NCBI GenBank assembly: GCA_963816185.1
Contig: CAWFJJ010000024.1
Location: 288,001 to 352,000 of the forward strand
Reading direction: 5' to 3'
DNA length: 64,000 bases
Source of the DNA: Thermoanaerobaculia bacterium
GTDB taxonomy: Bacteria; Acidobacteriota; Thermoanaerobaculia; UBA5066
A program made the translations under genes and the position numbers. Under the pieces are notes generated by a model. That model saw nothing but the letters and a program-made list of their open reading frames with translations, made no database searches and was not told the DNA's origin. Position 1 is the first letter of the stretch. Each line of letters starts with the position of its first letter. Shown one piece after another: positions 45,976-53,009 of the stretch.

Positions 45976-47375
45976 ACGGTCGGGCACATAGGTAACACTT
46001 TAGTCCAGGCACATGGGTAACACTTATCAACAGTTACCTCGTCGTCGTCGTGCTGTGGAGATCGTGGAAATCTTCTTGCGTAGAGCTCTCAGCCCCGCGC
46101 CCAGTGCGGCCGCCGCGATGCCAAGGCCGGTGTTCATAGAAGGCTGCATAGAGTTTCTTGTCGCGCTCGTCGAAGCGCCCCAGCAGTAGCGAACCGAAGT
46201 ACAGGTTCCAGATGCCGTCGTCGACCTCCTCGAGCCCGACGTACTCGTCGATCAGGGGGTGGCTGACGCTGAGCCAGCCCGTCTTCCAGCGGATCCCGCC
46301 GTTGCGGCTGACGCGCCTGACCTCGAAGTGGCCCGGGTACTCGATGGGTGCGAGCTTGGACGGGAACGTGCGCAGTGAAGGACGGTAAAGATCGGCGGGC
46401 CGTTTCATGCCGATGCTTTCGTGGGGCCGCTCGGTGTTGAACTCCAGCTGGAAGGCGTCGAAGCGTTTCTGCTGGCCTCTGAGGTCGCGCCCCACGGGGT
46501 GAGTCGTCGCCCGCTTGAGCGTGCGATGCATCCTCTCGTGCGAGCCGTTCTGCTCGGGGTGGGCCGGCTGCGTGAGCTCGGGCCTGATTCCCAGCTTGAT
46601 CCACCACACCGAGAGGCGCGAGAGCCGCCCCAGGCCCGTCGACGCAAACGGAACCCCGTTGTCGCTTCGGATCGCATCGGGCAATCCATGTTCGCGAAAC
46701 AGCCGTTCGAAGCTTTTCTTCACGCCGTCCGCCTTCGTCGAGAGCAGCCCTCTGCACCCGATGAGGTATCGGCTATAGAGGTCGCTCACCGTCAGCGGGT
46801 AGCAGTAGATCCCGTCGCCCGTCAGGAACTCGCCCTTGAAGTCCGTGGCCCACAGCGCATTCGCCTTCTCAGCCACCGTCATCGGACGTCCCGGATGCCC
46901 GACGGGCCGTCTGCGGCGCCGCGCCTTCACGAGCCCGTGTCTCTTGAGAATCGCCGCCACCGTGCTTCGTGCCGGCCAGCTCGTCTCCTGGTCGCGCGTC
47001 GCCAGCACGTGGACGATCTTCTTCGGGCCCCAGTCGGGGTGTTTGCGTCGAAACTCAGTGATGGCCGACTCGACATCCCCAGCGGTCTGATTCGGGTGCC
47101 AGTGCGGCCGGCGCACCTGGTCCTCGAGCCCTGCCACACCTTCCGCCTCGAATCTCTCGATCCACTTGTAGAGCGTCTTGCGGCTCACGCCGTGCCGCTC
47201 GGCCAGAAACCTCACCGTGAAAAGCCCGCTTCGATAATCCACCAGGCTCTGCATCCTCTCGGCCACGGGTGTCGTCTCCTTCCAGGGCATCGGGCGTTTC
47301 TCCTCCCGCCCGAACTCTGCCCTGTGTCACCCATGTGCCTGGACCGTTCTGTAACCCATGTGCCCGGACTGAACC
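45973..47375 (-). mobile_element. IS481-family insertion sequence
   Basis: Two GGCACATRGGTAACA-like repeats at each end in inverted orientation; GGC on both flanks (45970-72, 47376-78). Confidence 0.85.
46034..47290 (-). CDS. IS481-family DDE transposase
   Basis: MPWKE start, HTH, WATDFKG, RSDNGVPF, QNGSHERMHRTLK, RPHE. Confidence 0.93.
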   Translation of the reverse strand: MPWKETTPVAERMQSLVDYRSGLFTVRFLAERHGVSRKTLYKWIERFEAEGVAGLEDQVRRPHWHPNQTAGDVESAITEFRRKHPDWGPKKIVHVLATRDQETSWPARSTVAAILKRHGLVKARRRRRPVGHPGRPMTVAEKANALWATDFKGEFLTGDGIYCYPLTVSDLYSRYLIGCRGLLSTKADGVKKSFERLFREHGLPDAIRSDNGVPFASTGLGRLSRLSVWWIKLGIRPELTQPAHPEQNGSHERMHRTLKRATTHPVGRDLRGQQKRFDAFQLEFNTERPHESIGMKRPADLYRPSLRTFPSKLAPIEYPGHFEVRRVSRNGGIRWKTGWLSVSHPLIDEYVGLEEVDDGIWNLYFGSLLLGRFDERDKKLYAAFYEHRPWHRGGRTGRGAESSTQEDFHDLHSTTTTR

Positions 47376-47412
47376 GGCAGCGCAGCCTAACAACGCGCTG
47401 CAGCGGACTTCC

Positions 47413-47707
47413 ATGAGAAGGCCGGTTGTTGTCAAGAGAGGGCGGAATCGCCGGTGGGAATCCCTGGGCTCGAGTGTGTCGCCGCGCTTCCATTCGCACT
47501 CGTATGGGCCGCGTCTTGTCGGCCTGGTGCATGAGGGGGTCTAGTCCGCAAGGGCGCTGCAATCTCGCTACCGGTGTTCCGCCCCGGGCCGAAGTCCGTG
47601 GGGACCGGAGTCCGCTGCGCAGTCGCCCTGACGGGGCGTTGACTCGAATTTGGGATAGCCACGATTGAACGCGTCCTCTCGCTGGTTCCTTTCTTTTTTG
47701 CCCTGTG
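47413..47707 (-). ncRNA. Predicted bridge/seekRNA of element A (ends approximate)
   Basis: Internal loop between stems 47552-60/47619-28 and 47571-75/47604-08 carries target-matching 10-mers. Confidence 0.8.
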
Positions 47708-48874
47708 TCAGGCCGCTGCGGCCGTGCCGTGAGGCGCAGGGGCCTTGCGTAGCGGCTCGTAGACCTCCGCGGTCCGCCACAGCCGATGCAGCAACACCGC
47801 GAGTTTTCGTGCGATGGCAATGACCGCCCGTTTCTTCGCATTGCGCTCTCCTCGGGCTGACAGCGCCAGGCCGGATCGTCTGAGGTCGCAGTCCGGCCCG
47901 AATGGCCCGAGGACGTACTGCGCCGACTGAACCAGAAGCCGGCGCAGGAAGTGGTCCCCCTCTTTCGTGATGCGCAGCTGCGGGTCCGAATCACCGCTCT
48001 GACTTCGCGAAGGTACGAGCCCAAGGTACGCCCCGACGGCCCGGCTCTTCCGGAATCGACCCGGATCCTCCAGCGTCAGGACGTAGGCCAGCGCCACGAT
48101 CGGGCCCACTCCTCCCACCTGCCTCAGCAACGCCGTCTCCGGGTACTTCTTCTTCCCCAGTTCTAAGATGCGCTTGTCGAGCGCCAGGATCTGTCTGGAC
48201 ACGACTTCGATCGTCGTCAGGACGTTCGACAACGCTTCGCGTACCTCCTCGGGAATCTCGCCCACCGCCTGGATGGAGAACGTCCGGGTCGAGCACTTCC
48301 TCAGGCGGTGTCCCGTCGCTTTGACCGCCCCGCGGACGTGGTTGACGAGCTGCGTCCGCGTCCTCACCAGCACATCGCGCGAGCGCAGGACGGCCATGTC
48401 CTGTGCGACGCTCTCGGGACGGTGCTCCACGGGGTACAGAAGCTTCGGGTCCAGCCGGGCGATCCGGGCCAGGGCCTCGGCATCCACACGGTCCTGCTTC
48501 CCACGGTTCTGGTAGATCAGCCGGGTCTTTCGGGGGTTGGCCACCAGCACCTCGTGCCCTAGCTCTTTCAGAAGGCGGCTCACCCACGGGGAATGCGTTC
48601 CCACCTCCAGCGCGATTCGCATTCCCACCGGCCCTTCGAAACGCTTCCGGATCCCTTCCAGAGTCGTCTGGGCCCTTCCACGCTCGACGACCATCCCATC
48701 TTCATCGAGCACGCAAAAATGGCTCGTCCGATCCCCCAGGTCTATTCCGACGGTCCACGTCGGACAAAAAGCCGGAAGGACGTTCACCACTTTGCCCGAC
48801 GTCAATCTCGCCGTCCCATCACTCCTCGTCGCCGTCCTCTCGCTCCCGCTCGTCCCGGTGCTACGCTTCCTCAC
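47708..48874 (-). CDS. IS110-family DEDD recombinase A
   Basis: VGIDLG, ALEVG, KQDRVDA, GVGPIVA, YLGLVP..SQSG, ARKLA. Confidence 0.93.
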   Translation of the reverse strand: MRKRSTGTSGSERTATRSDGTARLTSGKVVNVLPAFCPTWTVGIDLGDRTSHFCVLDEDGMVVERGRAQTTLEGIRKRFEGPVGMRIALEVGTHSPWVSRLLKELGHEVLVANPRKTRLIYQNRGKQDRVDAEALARIARLDPKLLYPVEHRPESVAQDMAVLRSRDVLVRTRTQLVNHVRGAVKATGHRLRKCSTRTFSIQAVGEIPEEVREALSNVLTTIEVVSRQILALDKRILELGKKKYPETALLRQVGGVGPIVALAYVLTLEDPGRFRKSRAVGAYLGLVPSRSQSGDSDPQLRITKEGDHFLRRLLVQSAQYVLGPFGPDCDLRRSGLALSARGERNAKKRAVIAIARKLAVLLHRLWRTAEVYEPLRKAPAPHGTAAAA

Positions 48875-48990
48875 GGCCGGTCTCCCTTCTGGGCCTCGAG
48901 CCCGCAATGTCCTTGCAGCGAATTTTCCGACTGCGCCGGGGAGACCGGCCTTCTCATCCCATCTCGCTACGCTCGCCGCTGAGCTTGCCC

Positions 48991-49204
48991 ATGAAGATTC
49001 CTGTCAAGCCCCTCGCTGAATAATTTCTTGCTTGCGCCGCACGAAACAGCCGGCCACTCGTCCATTCGGGGTCAGAGCCCCACGTATCACTTCAGCGGAT
49101 GGCGCCCCAAACGATATCCCGGGCTCTGCGGCCCAATGCTCAGCAGCAGGGTCATCCACCCGATTCTCGGCAAGATTTGCGGCGTGCTTTTCCTTTCTTC
49201 GTCT
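48991..49204 (-). ncRNA. Predicted bridge/seekRNA of element B (ends approximate)
   Basis: Target loop 49097-49157 and donor-like loop 49057-49089, with matches to the flanks and the circle junction. Confidence 0.72.
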
Positions 49205-50308
49205 TCAGCGGCTCTTTGCCGCTTGAGGTTTCAGTCGATAGATCCGGGCATCCTTTACCGCCGTGCGCGGCTCGTGGGCTTTCAGCATCGATCGATCAAA
49301 GCTCGTCTTGTCTCGAAGCATCGCGTAAAGAACCCGACAGAGACGATGCGCCACGGCGGTGACAGCGCGGCGTGTCCCCAGGCGCAACGTGAGAGTTCTC
49401 AGAAACGGATTCAGTGGGCTGCTTTGCCGCCTGGCCGTGTGAGCCGCCTGCACGAGCATGGCCCGCAGCTCGGGCGAACCCGTCCTGGTGATGTGGCCCT
49501 GGCGGTTCGTTTCGCCCGACTGGTAGGTTTGCGGGACGAGCCCCGCGTAGCTCGCCGCATGCTTGGCGGTCGGAAAGCGCGTGGCGTCTGAGAAGACAGC
49601 GATTGCCGTCAGCGCCACGATCTCCCCGACTCCTGGAACGGTTTTGAGTCTCTCGAGGTCTTCGCCGAAGGCGGCGTGCTGGCTTTCGAGGCTCTTCTCG
49701 CACGCGTTCTTCTGCTCGAGGGCAGTCTGCCAGGCGCGGTGGTGAAGCTCGACGTAGCTCCTTACCTGCGGATGTGGAACCAGGGCCCCAAGAAGGCGCT
49801 GCCACGCGCGAAGGGTCCCGAGATGCTGGCGGCTGAGCTCGGAGAGCCCCGCGCTCCGGAGCATCTTTTTCGCCGCGTTGATCTGCGCCGTCCCGAGACG
49901 CACGAAATGGCGGCGCCTCGAGAGGGTATTTCTAAGGTGCTCGATCTTCTCCGGCGGCACATGCACGATCGACCGGTAGATTCCACGCCGCAGGCCTTCG
50001 CACAGTTCAACGGCGTCTCTCGTGTCGCTTTTCTGCCGGGGCCGATGGGCTTTGATCCTGACCTCTCGCGCATCCACCACGACGGGTGAAAGCCCCAGCT
50101 CACTGAGCTTTCGCGCCGCAAAAAACGCCATCGTCCCCGATTCGAGAGCCACCAGCGTCGAGGCGCGAAGCTTGAAACGTAGCCGCAACGAGGAAAACCC
50201 TTCCACAGAGGTCGGCACCTCGCCTCGTCCCAGCTCCTCTCCCCGCTCGTTCTGAATCATGAAAACGCTCGACTTGCTGTGAACGTCCAGTCCCACATAA
50301 GATTTCAT
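49205..50308 (-). CDS. IS110-family DEDD recombinase B
   Basis: YVGLDVH, ALESG, KSDTRDA, VPGVG, YAGLVP..YQSG; GGGAGG RBS. Confidence 0.93.
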   Translation of the reverse strand: MKSYVGLDVHSKSSVFMIQNERGEELGRGEVPTSVEGFSSLRLRFKLRASTLVALESGTMAFFAARKLSELGLSPVVVDAREVRIKAHRPRQKSDTRDAVELCEGLRRGIYRSIVHVPPEKIEHLRNTLSRRRHFVRLGTAQINAAKKMLRSAGLSELSRQHLGTLRAWQRLLGALVPHPQVRSYVELHHRAWQTALEQKNACEKSLESQHAAFGEDLERLKTVPGVGEIVALTAIAVFSDATRFPTAKHAASYAGLVPQTYQSGETNRQGHITRTGSPELRAMLVQAAHTARRQSSPLNPFLRTLTLRLGTRRAVTAVAHRLCRVLYAMLRDKTSFDRSMLKAHEPRTAVKDARIYRLKPQAAKSR

Positions 50309-50470
50309 CGGGCTGTCCTCCCTTGCTTGGGGCACCTCCTCGGAGGTTGACCCCGTTAAACTTGTGGCCCGATTCTTCGGTGACCACGTCGGCGAGGACA
50401 GCCCTTTTCTCGTCTTCATTGAAACGATATCGTTAGACGCCGGAAGGTAAAGCAGAGCTAGAATCTCCTC

Positions 50471-50692
50471 ATGTCGCTCGAACTGACCGCCGTCTTTCAG
50501 CAGGTGCCTGAAGGCTTCATCGCCTTTATCGAGGAGCTTCCGGGTGCGAACTCGCAGGGAGCCACGCTCGAGGAGGCCCGTTCAAACCTGCACGAGGCGG
50601 TAACGCTGGTTCTCGAGGCTAATCGCGCCCTCAGCGAGCAGGCGCTCGCGAACGCCTCGGTCATTAGGGAGCGTTTCAAGATCTCGGCGTGA
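50471..50692 (+). CDS. hicB: Cassette 2: HicB-family antitoxin (short, no DNA-binding domain)
   Basis: ELPGANSQGATLEEARSNLHEA. Confidence 0.88.
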   Translation: MSLELTAVFQQVPEGFIAFIEELPGANSQGATLEEARSNLHEAVTLVLEANRALSEQALANASVIRERFKISA

Positions 50693-50880
50693 AGCGCGCC
50701 GAGCTCATTCGTCACCTCGAACGCCATGGCTGCCAGCTCCTTCGCGAAGGCGGCTCGCATACCGTGTACGTCAATCGGCCCGAGCGCAAGGTATCTACCA
50801 TTCCCCGGCATCGCGAGCTCAACGAATTCCTTGCCGTCAAGATCTGCAAGGACCTCGGCGTCCCGAAGCCCGGCGTCTAA
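50689..50880 (+). CDS. hicA: Cassette 2: HicA-family mRNA interferase
   Basis: LLREGGSH..IPRH..ICKDLG; stop codon lies within GTCTAAC of attC2. Confidence 0.9.
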   Translation: MKRAELIRHLERHGCQLLREGGSHTVYVNRPERKVSTIPRHRELNEFLAVKICKDLGVPKPGV

Positions 50881-50918
50881 CAACGCGCTGCAGCGGACTC
50901 GTCGTCAGTCGCTGCGCT
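50875..50918 (+). other. attC2, left arm only (truncated)
   Basis: GTCTAACAACGCGCTGCAGCGGACTCG is nearly identical to the attC1 left arm; no GCTGAGC..GTTRRRY follows. Confidence 0.75.
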
Positions 50919-50975
50919 TAACTCGCTGCAATCTCTCTCCCAGGATCGCTCAAACCCAGATGGAGGTCGAAGACC

Positions 50976-53009
50976 ATGAGCCGGACCCATCGAGCGTTGA
51001 ACAATTGGATTGTGTTGGCTACGGTAATGGTGGTGGCAAGATACAGCAATACGTCGCAGGCTGCACCGCCAGTGGTGCCGGAGAGGGCATTACGCATCCA
51101 TGGCCCGTTCACAGTGGGCGCTGCGGACCTGAATCCGGCGAACGGTGGCGCTCCGACCAGCCCCAATGCCCCGAGGCCGTCGGGCGGCGGCACGCATCAC
51201 CATCCCGACGACGGGACCGGAGAGCCTCCCGGTCCTCAGACCCCTCCGGCGACGTCCGCGTTCGTCGATGTCGCGGGGTTGGGGGGCATCGACCCCGGGA
51301 TTGCGGCGGGTGACCGCTACGTCCTCGTCTGCGACAACGCGACCGGGCTGGCCTTCTACGACAAGACCGGGAAGCTGCTGGGTCCGAAGTCTCCCGGCTC
51401 CCCGTTTGCAAATCCCTTCTCGGTGTTCTCGCTGTTCTCTCAAGTAAAGGCGGACATCGACCCGCAGTTGAACTATCCCCCGGGTCTCCCACCCGGCTTC
51501 AACGTCGCCCACGGCAATGGCATCAGCGCCTATGGCGACGTCCGGGTGATGTTCGATCCATATCGCAAGCGGTTCTGGATCTACGCCATGGCGAAGAACG
51601 AGATCCCCACCGACTCGCCAAGTGTCATCAAGTTCCCGGCCATCAAGATGGCTCGGCGGGACAAGGCGGCCGTCGCGGTCTCGCTCACGGAGGACCCCCG
51701 GGACGGCTTCCTCACCTACTGGTGGAACAATACGGTTCACAACGGCGAGTCCAACGTGCCAGCGGGCGGCCCCGATCCGGTGTTCAAGACCTCGGGCGAG
51801 GGCGCCGACTATCCGAGCCTCGGGATCTCGCCCAAGTATTTCCTGGCGACGATCGGGGTGAACCGGAGGGATCCCACCTTCCAGACCAAAACGGACAAGC
51901 AGGTTAAAGCCTGGCTAGCCTGCCAGACCACATTCGTGGCGGACGGCCAGACCTTCGACTATTGCGGCCCGTTCTACATCCACATGATGGTAGTCGACGC
52001 CGAAGCCCTGGTCGGCGCATGCAAGGGCGGCAAGCCGGGCAAGCCATGCGCAGACGGGCGGTCGTTCGGGCTGTTCGTGAACGCCCGGAATTTCGTGACG
52101 GATCGGACCGACAGCGGGGACTTCTACACGAACATGGCGAGGGGCGTGAAGCCCGTCGTCATGCACGGTCTGCCGCCGACCGACCACGCAACAGACGCCT
52201 ATTTCGCGAACAACTTCATTGAGAGGGGCGGCGACCCGGCAACGAAGGCCAAGCTCGCGGACCTCAAGGCGAAGGTCAAGGATCTCCAGCGCCAGATTGC
52301 CGATGCCCCGCCCGCCCGGGCGGCCGACCTCTCGGCAAAGATCCTGGAGAAGGACGTCGAGATCCTCAAGCTGGAGAAGGAGCTCGGGCCGAAGTACTAC
52401 GTGGTCCTGTGGTCCCTCGAGGGAAACAGCCTGACCCCGGCCGCGTATCCGATCCGGCCTTTTGCGATCGACGGGTACAACGACTGGAAATTCGTCCTGA
52501 ACGCCTGCTTCAGGAAAGGGAACCTGTATGCCGCGTTCCAGGACTGCTTCCATGATCCCGATGGGAATTGTCTGCAGGCGATCCGAGCCATCCGCGTCAA
52601 CACCCTGAGCGGCAAGACGGAGGTCGACCGCACCTTCGGGCTGAACAATCCGATCGATGACAAGCCCACCGACCGCTTCTCCTACGAATTCCCTGCGATC
52701 GAGGCGAACAAGCACGGGGATATGGTGCTCGTCTACGCCCGCTCGTCCGCGACCCTCAAGAGGTCCCAGGAGGTACGTTTCAGCGTGTGGTACCACAATG
52801 AGTCGGATATCCGCCCCAGCCGGCTTCTCCATGCCGGCGAGGCGCCCTATTCGGCAACCGAATTCGGGAGAGGTACCGATACGGCAGGGATCAGCGTCGA
52901 CCCATCCGATGACGAGTCGATCTGGATTGCGCAGATCTTCGCGGCCAAGGAGGGGTCGGGGAATGGAACGAATCGGATCGCGTTCGGCAAGGTCTTCGGG
53001 ATGCCGTAA
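50976..53009 (+). CDS. Secreted hypothetical protein (probable beta-propeller) with coiled-coil insert
   Basis: GGAGG RBS; 677-aa ORF with coding-like GC3; DPGIAAG, FDPYRKRFW, DYPSLG. Confidence 0.75.
   Translation: MSRTHRALNNWIVLATVMVVARYSNTSQAAPPVVPERALRIHGPFTVGAADLNPANGGAPTSPNAPRPSGGGTHHHPDDGTGEPPGPQTPPATSAFVDVAGLGGIDPGIAAGDRYVLVCDNATGLAFYDKTGKLLGPKSPGSPFANPFSVFSLFSQVKADIDPQLNYPPGLPPGFNVAHGNGISAYGDVRVMFDPYRKRFWIYAMAKNEIPTDSPSVIKFPAIKMARRDKAAVAVSLTEDPRDGFLTYWWNNTVHNGESNVPAGGPDPVFKTSGEGADYPSLGISPKYFLATIGVNRRDPTFQTKTDKQVKAWLACQTTFVADGQTFDYCGPFYIHMMVVDAEALVGACKGGKPGKPCADGRSFGLFVNARNFVTDRTDSGDFYTNMARGVKPVVMHGLPPTDHATDAYFANNFIERGGDPATKAKLADLKAKVKDLQRQIADAPPARAADLSAKILEKDVEILKLEKELGPKYYVVLWSLEGNSLTPAAYPIRPFAIDGYNDWKFVLNACFRKGNLYAAFQDCFHDPDGNCLQAIRAIRVNTLSGKTEVDRTFGLNNPIDDKPTDRFSYEFPAIEANKHGDMVLVYARSSATLKRSQEVRFSVWYHNESDIRPSRLLHAGEAPYSATEFGRGTDTAGISVDPSDDESIWIAQIFAAKEGSGNGTNRIAFGKVFGMP

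What the first reader, a model, noticed from the sequence alone, without database searches (positions are those of the whole stretch)
47552..47628. Element A bridge/seekRNA target loop readable from sequence, with apparent handshake bases
Seen: on the minus strand, stems 47619-28/47552-60 and 47604-08/47571-75 enclose a 10x10 internal loop. One side, GCAGCGGACU, equals the left flank 47400-47409 (10/10, ending in the CT core). The other side corresponds to ATCTCGCTAC (47562-71), identical to the post-insertion junction 48961-70, which is 2 element bases + CT core + 6 target bases. A weaker donor-like match, CTTCCAT (47487-93), equals the circle junction CT-TCCAT. Known: IS621 bridge RNA uses LTG/RTG guides around a CT core plus handshake bases that favour the product. 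Inference: this is the same mechanism in a downstream IS1111-type NCR.
Basis: partly seen in the sequence, partly recalled or inferred. Interest (0 to 1): 0.78.

Follow-up and report, generated by a model that had tools for sequence, protein, structure and literature searches.

The report
Bridge RNA of an IS1111-type element
A mobile element in a soil bacterium carries, just after its transposase gene, a folded guide RNA whose loops spell out the DNA it inserts into and its own ends, which is the known RNA-guided "bridge/seekRNA" mechanism seen here in a new branch of the family.

Summary
Element A (window 47410-48962, transposase on the minus strand) is an IS1111-type insertion sequence sitting in a REP-like palindromic repeat. 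An uninterrupted paralogous site elsewhere in the genome fixes its ends and the duplicated CT core.

The 3' non-coding region folds into a closed three-way junction. One arm carries a 10x10 internal loop:
- The 5' side equals left target plus core.
- The 3' side equals right target plus core plus the first two element bases.

The same RNA follows the transposase gene in 95 of 98 related loci. In those relatives both guides change together with different flanks (0 of 20000 and 0 of 10000 permutations reach the observed match). The stems covary, and so does the donor guide AUGGA-AG with the element's right end. The two "handshake" bases follow the donor's terminal dinucleotide in all four element types where it is not AT.

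No RNA, protein binding or transposition was shown.

This is a new member of a known kind (IS1111 seekRNA / IS110-family bridge RNA). The modest new points are handshake covariation in this group and the donor guides sitting in a multiloop.

The parts
47410..48962 (-). Element A, an IS1111-type insertion sequence (1553 bp, plus one copy of the CT core at 47408-47409 or 48963-48964).
   Evidence: An uninterrupted paralogous site at G000 C25:611925 and a second exact empty site at C29:452123. Contigs in runs X1 and X20 join 47407 to 48963, skipping 1555 bases, but with only 22-23 nt on the shorter side, so they are other REP copies.
47708..48874 (-). Transposase gene. The likely GTG start at 48874 lines up with the ATG of relatives. 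The ORF is open from 48907.
   Evidence: PF01548 (E 7.8e-20) and PF02371 (E 1.9e-18). NF033542 'IS110 family RNA-guided transposase', 216 bits against a cut-off of 140. The GLVPSRSQSG motif is in the translation.
48944..48957 (.). Subterminal inverted repeat at the transposase-proximal end, followed by the 5-nt terminal extension 48958-48962.
   Evidence: A 14-nt exact inverted repeat with 47413-47426. The core ATGAGAAGGCC is shared by 22 of the 31 relatives examined in the calls on genome loci.
47413..47426 (.). Subterminal inverted repeat at the NCR end, with the 3-nt terminal extension 47410-47412.
47430..47435 (-). Outward-facing TTGACA (-35-like), 20 nt from the element end. It is a candidate half of a circle-junction promoter.
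   Evidence: TTGAC lies within the last 40 nt of 76 of 78 related right ends, 19-20 nt from the end in 70 of them. No complete sigma-70-like promoter was found in the integrated element. The function is inferred from PMC11187229 section 14.
47470..47654 (-). Structured bridge/seekRNA core. P0 (47635-47647 with 47470-47483) closes a three-way junction.
   Evidence: Covariance model hit at 47474-47641 on the minus strand, 127 bits, the only hit in the window. Duplex energies of cognate versus non-cognate arms for helix P0: 1 of 5000 permutations.
47619..47628 (-). P2 5' strand. It pairs with 47552-47560 and is the outer stem of the target-binding loop.
   Evidence: RNAalifold. On 93 distinct rows, 98.7% of cells are paired and 6 of 9 pairs change on both sides.
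47609..47618 (-). Left target guide (8 nt) plus core (CU).
   Evidence: Identical to + strand 47400-47409. Guide-flank match in relatives is 6.69 of 8 cognate against 4.38 non-cognate. The replication gives 6.40 against 4.06, with 0 of 10000 permutations.
47571..47608 (-). P3 stem-loop between the two guides. Its base pairs are 47604-47608 with 47571-47575.
   Evidence: P3 cognate versus non-cognate: 1 of 5000.
47566..47571 (-). Right target guide (GUAGCG).
   Evidence: Equals the minus strand of 48965-48970. The in-register match in relatives is 5.12 of 8 against 2.21, with 0 of 20000 permutations.
47564..47565 (-). Core positions of the right guide (AG).
   Evidence: Relative L028 has AA here, AA in the donor guide, UU in the left guide and AA at both DNA junctions.
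47562..47563 (-). Handshake dinucleotide (AU), equal to the first two bases of the element (48961-48962 on the + strand).
   Evidence: 49 distinct RNA types: AT/AT 36, AA/AA 2, GT/GT 2, GT/AT 6 (wobble-compatible), AC/AT 2, TT/AT 1. The AA and GT types have AT-type nearest neighbours.
47532..47541 (-). Junction strand between P1 and P4 (GACCCCCUCA). It is the candidate left donor guide and is weak in this copy.
   Evidence: Across 41 distinct pairs, the match to the reverse complement of the left terminal extension is 0.79 cognate against 0.65 non-cognate, with 0 of 10000 permutations. L047 and L090 match fully. In the window only 4 of 5 positions match in the common register.
47495..47531 (-). 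P4 (47527-47531 with 47495-47499) and the P5 hairpin inside it.
   Evidence: P4 is invariant. On the 93-row alignment it is 100% paired with 2 of 4 pairs changing on both sides. P5 cognate versus non-cognate: 0 of 5000.
47487..47493 (-). Right donor guide (AUGGA, 47489-47493) plus core (AG, 47487-47488).
   Evidence: Of 77 loci: RNA UGGA with DNA end GGA 62, UAGA with AGA 13, UAGG with AGA 1, UGGA with AGA 1.
47375..47409 (.). Left half of the REP-like target repeat (target left arm plus CT).
   Evidence: Repeat copies are listed. The genome holds 2 exact, 12 within 1 mismatch and 21 within 2 mismatches of the 16-nt target.
48963..48987 (.). Right half of the REP-like target repeat, cut at 48988 by a second element.
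   Evidence: Loose ends at 48987 continue as the REP arm in runs X1 and X20.

Best explanation
Element A is an IS1111-type insertion sequence whose 3' non-coding region encodes a bridge RNA (seekRNA) of about 185-205 nt.

Structure: the RNA closes on itself through helix P0. One arm (P1-P2, internal loop, P3) is the target-binding loop.

Target recognition:
- The 5' side of the loop (left target guide plus CU) pairs with the strand complementary to window + 47400-47409.
- The 3' side (right target guide plus AG) pairs with the + strand at 48963-48970.
- Both strands of a REP-like repeat are therefore read on either side of a CT core.
- The next two bases (AU) cannot pair with the target. They can pair with the incoming donor strand after the first strand exchange, so they favour the product (handshake).

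Donor recognition: the two single strands of the three-way junction on either side of P4-P5 read the element's own joined ends. AUGGA-AG reads the right end plus core. A C-rich stretch reads the left terminal extension.

The DEDD/Tnp transposase would carry out recombination at the core.

Shown here: the anatomy, the element ends, and the covariation of stems, both target guides, the core, the right donor guide and the handshake bases.

Inferred from published relatives: that the RNA is made, probably from a promoter formed at the circle junction; that it binds the transposase; and the chemistry.

My odds are about 0.9 for the target loop, 0.65 for the donor guides and 0.6 for a working handshake.
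For: - Exact 10/10 matches of both loop sides to the junctions.
- Uninterrupted paralogous sites fix the ends and the duplicated CT.
- Pfam and NCBIfam transposase domains.
- The 14-bp subterminal repeats are shared with relatives.
- First test, 16 related elements of 46-100% protein identity. The left guide matches 6.69 of 8 cognate against 4.38 non-cognate. The right guide matches 5.12 of 8 against 2.21. With 13 representatives, 0 of 20000 permutations reach the observed sum.
- A covariance model built from those 16 finds the RNA downstream of the gene in 95 of 98 further sources; it is missing in L074, L094 and L107.
- Replication on 45 distinct loop types not used to build the model. The left guide matches 6.40 of 8 against 4.06, with 0 of 10000 permutations.
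- Stems: 96.4% of cells are paired, 10 of 17 pairs change on both sides, and 0 of 500 shuffles reach this. Slid controls give 24-52% paired.
- P0, P2, P3 and P5 cognate arms pair better than non-cognate arms (1, 0, 1 and 0 of 5000 permutations).
- A core variant is consistent in the three RNA core positions examined (both target guides and the right donor guide) and at both junctions (L028).
- Right donor guide: 75 of 77 identical to the element end, 1 wobble-compatible, 1 discordant.
- Handshake: 40 of 49 types identical, 6 wobble-compatible, 3 mismatched at the second base. All 4 types whose donor does not start with AT are matched, and their nearest neighbours are AT types.
- The order of the guides (the top-strand match lies 5' of the bottom-strand match, relative to the transposase) is as published for IS1111 seekRNAs (PMC11187229 section 9).
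- The pairing scheme is that of IS621 (PMC11208158, passages read).
Against: - There is no direct evidence of an RNA. The one RNA-library run holds only contigs of 85-95% relatives, and DNA carry-over is not excluded.
- Folding energy is not better than shuffles.
- No Rfam family matches.
- Misfits among relatives:
  - The right guide of L009 differs from its flank at 3 of 6 positions.
  - The left guide of L026 does not match its right flank (4 of 8), where the flank repeats part of its own NCR.
  - L025 has a discordant core.
  - L040 has a discordant right end.
- Within the window's own close family (82-88% identity) the left guide, the handshake bases and the donor ends never vary. The copy at hand therefore contributes no covariation itself, apart from the right-guide change in L008.
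- The left donor guide is weak in this copy (4 of 5), and donor ends vary little overall.
- The two bases after the donor-guide core (CG) do not match the target, so the window shows no handshake on the donor side.
- Related sequences are not independent, so the permutation counts overstate significance.
- In one search the left boundary was chosen among 6 offsets to maximise the right-guide match, which inflates that one figure. One search did not do this.
Confidence: 0.88

Rival explanations
1. The target loop is real, but donor recognition is by protein binding to the long subterminal inverted repeats. On this view AUGGA-AG, the C-rich junction strand and the AU 'handshake' are conserved scaffold, not guides.
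For: - The donor ends and these RNA positions are nearly invariant: 36 of 49 types are AT/AT, and 62 of 77 are GGA with UGGA.
- The short 82-nt seekRNA of ISEc11 sufficed for transposition, and the authors consider the IS1111 mechanism possibly different from IS110 (PMC11187229 sections 10 and 14).
- The left donor guide fits poorly in the window.
- 3 of 49 handshake types mismatch.
Against: - Where the donor does vary, the RNA follows. The G/A change at the right end is followed in 13 of 15 loci exactly and in 1 more by wobble. AA and GT left ends are followed in 4 of 4 types. L047 and L090 have fully matching left donor strands. The core variant L028 also changes in the donor guide.
- The nearest neighbours of the variants are of the common type.
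Confidence: 0.2
2. The guides act as single-stranded DNA of the element end, as in IS200/IS605, and not as RNA.
For: Covariation cannot tell RNA from DNA of the same strand. No transcript was shown. No promoter or terminator was found in the integrated element.
Against: - The transposase belongs to the family named RNA-guided by NCBIfam.
- It is related, distantly, to IS621, whose RNA complex is solved.
- IS1111 NCR RNAs co-purify with their transposases (PMC11187229 abstract and section 9).
- G-U pairs occur in the stems on this strand only (GU or UG in 6 of 17 pairs).
- The structure lies 45-240 nt inside the end, not at the cleavage site.
Confidence: 0.03
3. The matches are chance, or a relic of REP sequence carried inside the NCR, and have no function.
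For: The target is a palindromic repeat with many genomic copies. G+C-rich sequence gives many short matches.
Against: - The two halves are separated by a hairpin, and the right half is in reverse-complement orientation relative to the REP, so the NCR is not a REP copy.
- The expected number of matches is 0.30 and 0.05 per window.
- Relatives with unrelated, non-REP flanks show the same relation.
Confidence: 0.01

Closest known systems
seekRNAs of the IS1111-family elements ISEc11, ISPa11, ISKpn4 and ISPst6 (Siddiquee et al. 2024, PMC11187229; outline and sections 6, 9, 10, 13, 14 read)
   Same: - A DEDD transposase with the GL-P----SG motif.
- A long NCR downstream of the gene.
- Subterminal inverted repeats with short terminal extensions.
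- Two short target matches in one folded RNA, with the top-strand match 5' of the bottom-strand match.
- Natural retargeting among relatives.
- Co-transcription from a junction promoter is proposed there, and a conserved -35 box is seen here.
   Different: - The transposase is at most about 35% identical to any IS110-family gene in the plasmid collection. No direct comparison with those four elements was possible.
- The host is an uncultured soil Thermoanaerobaculia lineage.
- The ORF is 354-388 aa against 330-350.
- Here the donor-end matches and a handshake dinucleotide are also traced, which that paper does not describe in the sections I read.
IS621 bridge RNA (Durrant et al. 2024, PMC11208160, passages read; Hiraizumi et al. 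2024, PMC11208158, passages read)
   Same: - The left guide equals the top-strand left target plus core.
- The right guide pairs with the top-strand right target.
- A CT core.
- A handshake dinucleotide 3' of the right guide pairs with donor positions 6-7 and not with the target.
- The same layout is repeated for the donor.
   Different: - The RNA lies downstream of the gene.
- The whole recombination module is inverted relative to the transposase: the CT strand is the strand opposite to the gene.
- The donor guides lie in the strands of a three-way junction, not in a second internal loop. Durrant et al. noted this for many IS1111 orthologues.
- The subterminal repeats are long.
- The protein is only distantly related (phmmer E 1e-6).
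REP-targeting IS110/IS1111 elements such as ISPpu9, ISPpu10 and ISPa11 (PMC12288879, search-listing abstract only; Tobes and Pareja 2006, seen only as a reference entry)
   Same: Orientation-specific insertion at one position of a repetitive extragenic palindrome, with several unoccupied copies in the host genome.
   Different: The repeat family and the phylum differ. Here two different elements occupy two positions of the same repeat copy.

Membership tests
IS1111 group of the IS110 family | DEDD (RuvC-like) N-terminal domain plus the PF02371 C-terminal domain | tested here: met
   PF01548 E 7.8e-20 and PF02371 E 1.9e-18. NF033542 at 216 bits against a cut-off of 140.
IS1111 group of the IS110 family | The longer non-coding region lies downstream of the transposase gene | tested here: met
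   298 nt downstream (47410-47707) against 88 nt upstream of the GTG at 48874.
IS1111 group of the IS110 family | Subterminal inverted repeats of 7-17 bp with short terminal extensions | tested here: met
   A 14-bp exact repeat, 5 nt from one end and 3 nt from the other.
IS1111 group of the IS110 family | The C-terminal motif GL-P----S(t)G | tested here: met
   GLVPSRSQSG is in the ORF translation. The motif is as given in PMC11187229 section 6.
IS1111 group of the IS110 family | Transposase of 330-350 aa | tested here: inconclusive
   The homologous part is 354 aa. It is 388 aa from the likely GTG start and 399 aa from the first start of the ORF.
IS1111 group of the IS110 family | Site- and orientation-specific insertion with only the core dinucleotide repeated | tested here: met
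   An empty paralogous site. The same position of the repeat is occupied in copies C7 and C2 and in relatives L007 and L009.
seekRNA / bridge RNA | Two guide segments on the two sides of one internal loop, complementary to opposite strands of the target either side of the core | tested here: met
seekRNA / bridge RNA | The guides covary with the target across relatives | tested here: met
   0 of 20000 permutations and 0 of 10000 permutations.
seekRNA / bridge RNA | A conserved secondary structure supported by compensatory changes | tested here: met
seekRNA / bridge RNA | Donor-binding guides for the joined element ends | tested here: inconclusive
   The right donor guide is met (75 of 77 identical). 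The left donor guide is supported across the family (0 of 10000 permutations) but is weak in this copy (4 of 5).
seekRNA / bridge RNA | Handshake bases that pair with the non-cognate DNA after strand exchange | tested here: met
   For the target loop, 40 of 49 types are identical and 4 of 4 non-AT donor types are matched. On the donor side there is no match in the window. Across the family, G goes with target G in 14 of 15 types, while C is unspecific.
seekRNA / bridge RNA | The RNA is expressed, binds the transposase and is required for transposition | not testable with these tools
   Only contigs of relatives in one RNA library.
seekRNA / bridge RNA | A match to a curated RNA family model | tested here: not met
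   No Rfam 15 family at E <= 1 on 47410-47707. The only row is asX2 at 49844-49972, E 0.73. I do not know whether Rfam holds a bridge-RNA family.

The most novel reading that the evidence does not exclude
The handshake principle found in IS621 also operates in the IS1111 branch. The dinucleotide 3' of the right target guide tracks the donor's terminal dinucleotide through at least three independent changes. This happens in an RNA whose recombination module is inverted relative to the transposase gene and whose donor guides are the single strands of a three-way junction. A donor-side handshake exists only in lineages that carry G at the first position after the donor-guide core. If so, this clade (over 590 metagenomic relatives, soil Acidobacteriota) gives explicit programming rules for a second, structurally distinct class of bridge recombinases.
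Probability: 0.55. Interest if true: 0.45.

Novelty: new member of a known kind. Interest (0 to 1): 0.35.

Why it matters
It confirms that guide, core and handshake positions of an RNA-guided recombinase can be read directly from a single genomic copy.

It also adds a well-populated, previously uncharacterised clade of IS1111-type elements, with a full comparative model of its RNA:
- a closed three-way junction;
- a target loop;
- junction-strand donor guides;
- a programmable core.

For biology, it shows REP-like repeats of an uncultured soil lineage acting as landing pads for at least two different RNA-guided elements.

For engineering, the natural variants give ready-made test cases for rules so far established only for IS621. 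These variants are the core AA, the handshake dinucleotides AA and GU, and the altered donor ends.

It does not change the understanding of the mechanism.

Tried and rejected
- **Rfam scan** of 46000-51000: nothing relevant.
- **Folding energy as evidence:** not better than shuffles.
- **Plain RNAalifold on the longer alignment A2:** it recovered only P2 and P4. P0, P1, P3 and P5 were therefore tested by duplex energy of cognate against non-cognate arms. P1 is weak (175 of 5000).
- **Fixed-register comparison of the left guide:** it failed because the 5' loop side differs in length by 1-2 nt between relatives. It was replaced by a sliding comparison with the same procedure for the controls.
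- **Regex parsing of the metagenome loci:** it mis-placed many left ends. It was replaced by a covariance-model alignment.
- **Other left-donor-guide candidates in the window:** CCCAU at about 47505 and AUCCCA at about 47655. Both were rejected because they do not follow the donor ends in relatives (reading).
- **Promoter and terminator scan** of the integrated element: none found.
- **Read laying:**
  - The joints that skip 1555 bases have only 22-23 nt on the shorter side, so they are other REP copies and not evidence of excision.
  - The RNA-library contigs are of relatives (85-95% identity) and do not show transcription of this copy.
  - No habitat claim is made from the small-share runs.
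- **Plasmid collection:** no close named relative; the best is 35% identity.
- **Figures and supplements** of the two 2024 papers (Extended Data Fig. 10c and Supplementary Table 5 of PMC11208160; Supplementary Figs 6-9 of PMC11187229) were not seen. They may already show IS1111 donor loops or handshake-like bases.
- **Literature search** for 'handshake' plus 'IS1111': it found 4 papers. In the passages I read of three of them handshake guides are described only for IS621 and IS110-group orthologues. The fourth (bioRxiv 10.64898/2026.01.12.699009) was seen as a listing only.

Full report
**1. What is in the window**

The minus strand of 47708-48907 is an open frame. Its product carries the two domains of IS110-family transposases, PF01548 and PF02371. 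It scores 216 bits on NCBIfam NF033542, 'IS110 family RNA-guided transposase', against a cut-off of 140. The likely start is the GTG at 48874, which lines up with the ATG of relatives.

Exact 14-bp inverted repeats lie at 48944-48957 and 47413-47426. They sit 5 nt and 3 nt inside the ends.

The ends themselves are fixed by the host genome. Contig C25 holds the same surroundings without the element, reading straight from 47409 into 48965. C29 holds a second exact empty site. The filled site therefore has CT at both junctions (47408-47409 and 48963-48964).

The element is 1553 bp, with 298 nt of non-coding DNA downstream of the gene and 88 nt upstream. All of these are features of the IS1111 group as described in PMC11187229 section 6 and in PMC11208160 (passages).

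**2. The target**

The target is a REP-like palindromic repeat. The 16-nt site occurs in the 5.09-Mb assembly as follows:

| Mismatches allowed | Sites |
|---|---|
| 0 | 2 |
| 1 or fewer | 12 |
| 2 or fewer | 21 |

A degenerate second copy of the element (C7) and a 117-nt end fragment (C2) sit at the same position of other repeat copies. The C7 copy is 99% identical, but its gene is broken and its last bases are replaced.

**3. The observation**

- The outer stem is 47619-47628 with 47552-47560, with one bulged A.
- The inner stem is 47604-47608 with 47571-47575.
- Both stems appear in the MFE folds, and they enclose a 10x10 loop.
- The 5' side (47618..47609) is identical to + strand 47400-47409.
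- + strand 47562-47571 is identical to 48961-48970. This 10-mer reaches one base into the inner stem.

Both 10-mers are rarer than chance allows: 3 found against 0.30 expected, and 2 found against 0.05 expected. Folding energy by itself is not significant (z -1.60 and -0.15).

**4. Fit to the published pairing rules**

Take the window + strand as the 'top' strand. The target then reads left target (8 nt), CT, right target (6 nt). The 5' loop side equals left target plus core, so it pairs with the bottom strand. The 3' loop side is the reverse complement of right target plus core, so it pairs with the top strand.

The next two RNA bases (AU) are the reverse complement of the last two donor bases before the core, not of the target's own bases. 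This is exactly the IS621 scheme of left guide, right guide and handshake guide (PMC11208158, passages).

Relative to the transposase gene the module is inverted. This reproduces the 'top-strand match 5' of bottom-strand match' order reported for IS1111 seekRNAs (PMC11187229 section 9).

**5. Relatives and covariation of the target guides**

- A scan of species-representative genomes gave 6 loci of 82-87% identity from Thermoanaerobaculia and Acidobacteriota MAGs.
- A search of 401 genomes of the phylum found the protein in 26 of them and gave 30 loci.
- 22 of the 31 loci examined carry the same subterminal repeat core ATGAGAAGGCC, with unrelated flanks.

I took 16 distinct elements, aligned their NCRs and compared guides with flanks. 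The left boundary was set by the AG|AT (or AA|AT) junction motif, and the same sliding procedure was used for the controls.

| Guide | Cognate match | Non-cognate match |
|---|---|---|
| Left guide | 6.69 of 8 | 4.38 |
| Right guide | 5.12 of 8 | 2.21 |

With one representative for each of 13 families, 0 of 20000 permutations reached the observed sum.

Misfits:
- L009: the right guide differs from the flank at 3 of 6 positions.
- L026: the left guide matches 4 of 8, and its right flank repeats part of its own NCR.
- L025: discordant core.

Within the window's own close family only L008 varies. Two right-guide bases change, and the flank has the same two changes.

**6. Replication**

A protein-profile scan of metagenome contigs found 593 relatives, of which 80 were fetched. 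A covariance model built from the 16 sequences found the RNA downstream of the gene in 95 of 98 sources not used to build it. It gave exactly one hit in the window, at 47474-47641 on the minus strand.

Of the 95 rows, 57 had both flanks, giving 45 distinct 5'-loop types. The left guide matched 6.40 of 8 against 4.06, with 0 of 10000 permutations.

The right-guide figure of that call (4.40 of 6 against 1.61) is inflated, because I placed the left boundary by the best of six offsets.

One row (L019) comes from genome G152, which is flagged unpublished. No claim depends on it.

**7. Structure**

RNAalifold on the 16 sequences gives P2, the base of P3, and P4. 9 of 17 pairs show compensatory changes.

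On the 93 distinct rows of the model alignment:
- 96.4% of cells pair, against a shuffled mean of 88.1% and 24-52% in slid controls.
- 10 of 17 pairs change on both sides, and 0 of 500 shuffles reach this.
- This alignment is fitted to the model and leans towards it.

Helices with variable spacing were tested by duplex energy of cognate against non-cognate arms, with 10 family representatives:

| Helix | Permutations reaching the observed value (of 5000) |
|---|---|
| P0 | 1 |
| P1 | 175 |
| P2 | 0 |
| P3 | 1 |
| P5 | 0 |

The picture is a closed three-way junction. P0 joins the 5' and 3' ends. One arm is P1-P2, the target loop and P3. The other arm is P4-P5. [quoted passage not shown]

**8. 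Donor side**

The 3' junction strand reads AAUGGA-AG.

The G/A polymorphism of the element end is followed by the RNA across 77 loci:

| RNA | DNA end | Loci |
|---|---|---|
| UGGA | GGA | 62 |
| UAGA | AGA | 13 |
| UAGG | AGA | 1 |
| UGGA | AGA | 1 (L040) |

L040's sister copy, L018, has GGA.

L028 has core AA instead of AG at both junctions and in both the right target guide and the right donor guide, with UU in the left target guide.

The 5' junction strand (47532-47541 in the window) matches the reverse complement of the left terminal extension better in cognate than in non-cognate pairs (0.79 against 0.65, 41 distinct pairs, 0 of 10000 permutations). There are full matches where the extension is unusual (L047, L090). 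In the window itself the fit is only 4 of 5, so the left donor guide of this copy remains tentative.

**9. Handshake bases**

In 56 of 61 rows the left end could be placed with at least 5 of 8 matches; 5 rows were dropped. These rows give 49 distinct RNA types:

| RNA handshake | First two element bases | Types | Comment |
|---|---|---|---|
| AT | AT | 36 | identical |
| AA | AA | 2 | identical |
| GT | GT | 2 | identical |
| GT | AT | 6 | G-T wobble possible |
| AC | AT | 2 | mismatch |
| TT | AT | 1 | mismatch |

The two AA types are 63% identical to each other, and their nearest neighbours (66% and 74%) are AT types. The nearest neighbour of L071 (GT) is an AT type at 62%. At least three changes therefore look independent.

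In 0 of 60 types does the handshake dinucleotide equal the target's own two bases.

On the donor side, the first base after the core is G in 15 types, and the target then has G in 14 of them. C, found in 44 types, goes with any base. The window has C, so no donor-side handshake is seen here.

Relatedness inflates all of these counts.

**10. Expression**

No sigma-70-like promoter or intrinsic terminator lies in the integrated element.

An outward-facing TTGAC(A) sits 19-20 nt from the element end in 70 of 78 related right ends, and within the last 40 nt in 76 of 78. It lies at 47430-47435 in the window. This fits the published idea that gene and RNA are co-transcribed from a promoter completed when the ends are joined (PMC11187229 section 14). 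The -10 half would have to span the junction; I did not evaluate it.

Sequencing runs gave no usable evidence of transcription.

**11. Comparison and novelty**

The transposase is only distantly similar to the solved IS621 and ISCro4 proteins (E 1e-6 and 2e-6). It is at most about 35% identical to IS110-family genes on plasmids.

The mechanism class is known. seekRNAs of IS1111 elements have been shown experimentally (PMC11187229), and bridge RNAs were predicted in the right end of 93% of IS1111 elements (PMC11208160).

What I did not find in print is handshake covariation for the IS1111 group. The search 'handshake' plus 'IS1111' gave 4 papers. I read passages of three of them, and figures and supplements were not seen.

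This is a new member of a known kind, with a useful comparative model of the RNA. Interest is moderate to low.

Noticed in passing
window 48988-50425 (minus strand); guide-like matches at 49138-49144 and 49109-49118: A second IS110-family element lies 25 nt from Element A, in the other arm of the same REP copy and in the same orientation. Its transposase is at 49205-50419 (404 aa, PF01548 and PF02371, NF033542 at 226 bits). Its 217-nt downstream NCR holds a 7-nt match to its right flank and a 10-nt match to its left junction, including element bases. It has a TTGACA near its end. The covariance model R1 does not hit it.
   Followed up: partly
window 46034-47375: An IS481-like transposase (HTH_32, rve, LZ_Tnp_IS481; 418 aa, minus strand) ends about 35 nt from the REP. 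The same trio minus Element A (IS481-like element, REP, second IS110 element) is repeated at G000 C25 near 611,900. The whole block is therefore itself duplicated.
   Followed up: partly
L002 (G000 C7:317-1863): A second copy of Element A, 99% identical, is decayed. The transposase is found in two pieces with one TGA. The last nine bases of element end, core and first flank base are replaced by 12 unrelated bases before the REP arm resumes.
   Followed up: partly
L003 (G000 C2:10074-10190): A solitary 117-nt piece of the transposase-proximal end of Element A (96% identical) sits at the usual position of another REP copy. The rest of the element is missing.
   Followed up: no
L028 (G209 C34): A natural core variant. 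It has AA instead of AG at both junctions, in the right target guide and in the right donor guide, with UU in the left target guide.
   Followed up: yes
L026 (G266 C38): The right flank of this relative repeats 27 nt of its own NCR, and its left guide does not match that flank. It may be a tandem or nested insertion, or an assembly artefact near a contig end.
   Followed up: no
L018 and L040 (G112 C1): Two copies of one element with identical RNA differ in the third base from the right end (GGA against AGA). One copy therefore mismatches its own donor guide.
   Followed up: no
A4 alignment, two columns after the donor-guide core: The first base after the donor-guide core is G in 15 distinct types, and 14 of those have G as the first target base beyond the core. 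C (44 types) shows no preference. This may be a lineage-restricted donor-side handshake.
   Followed up: partly
window 50890-50899 and G000-wide: The REP-like repeat family (about 55 nt, imperfect palindrome) is dispersed over many contigs. 21 copies lie within 2 mismatches of Element A's 16-nt target.
   Followed up: partly
window 49844-49972 (minus strand): A weak Rfam match to asX2 (21.4 bits against a gathering score of 70, E 0.73) lies inside the second transposase gene. It is most likely chance.
   Followed up: no
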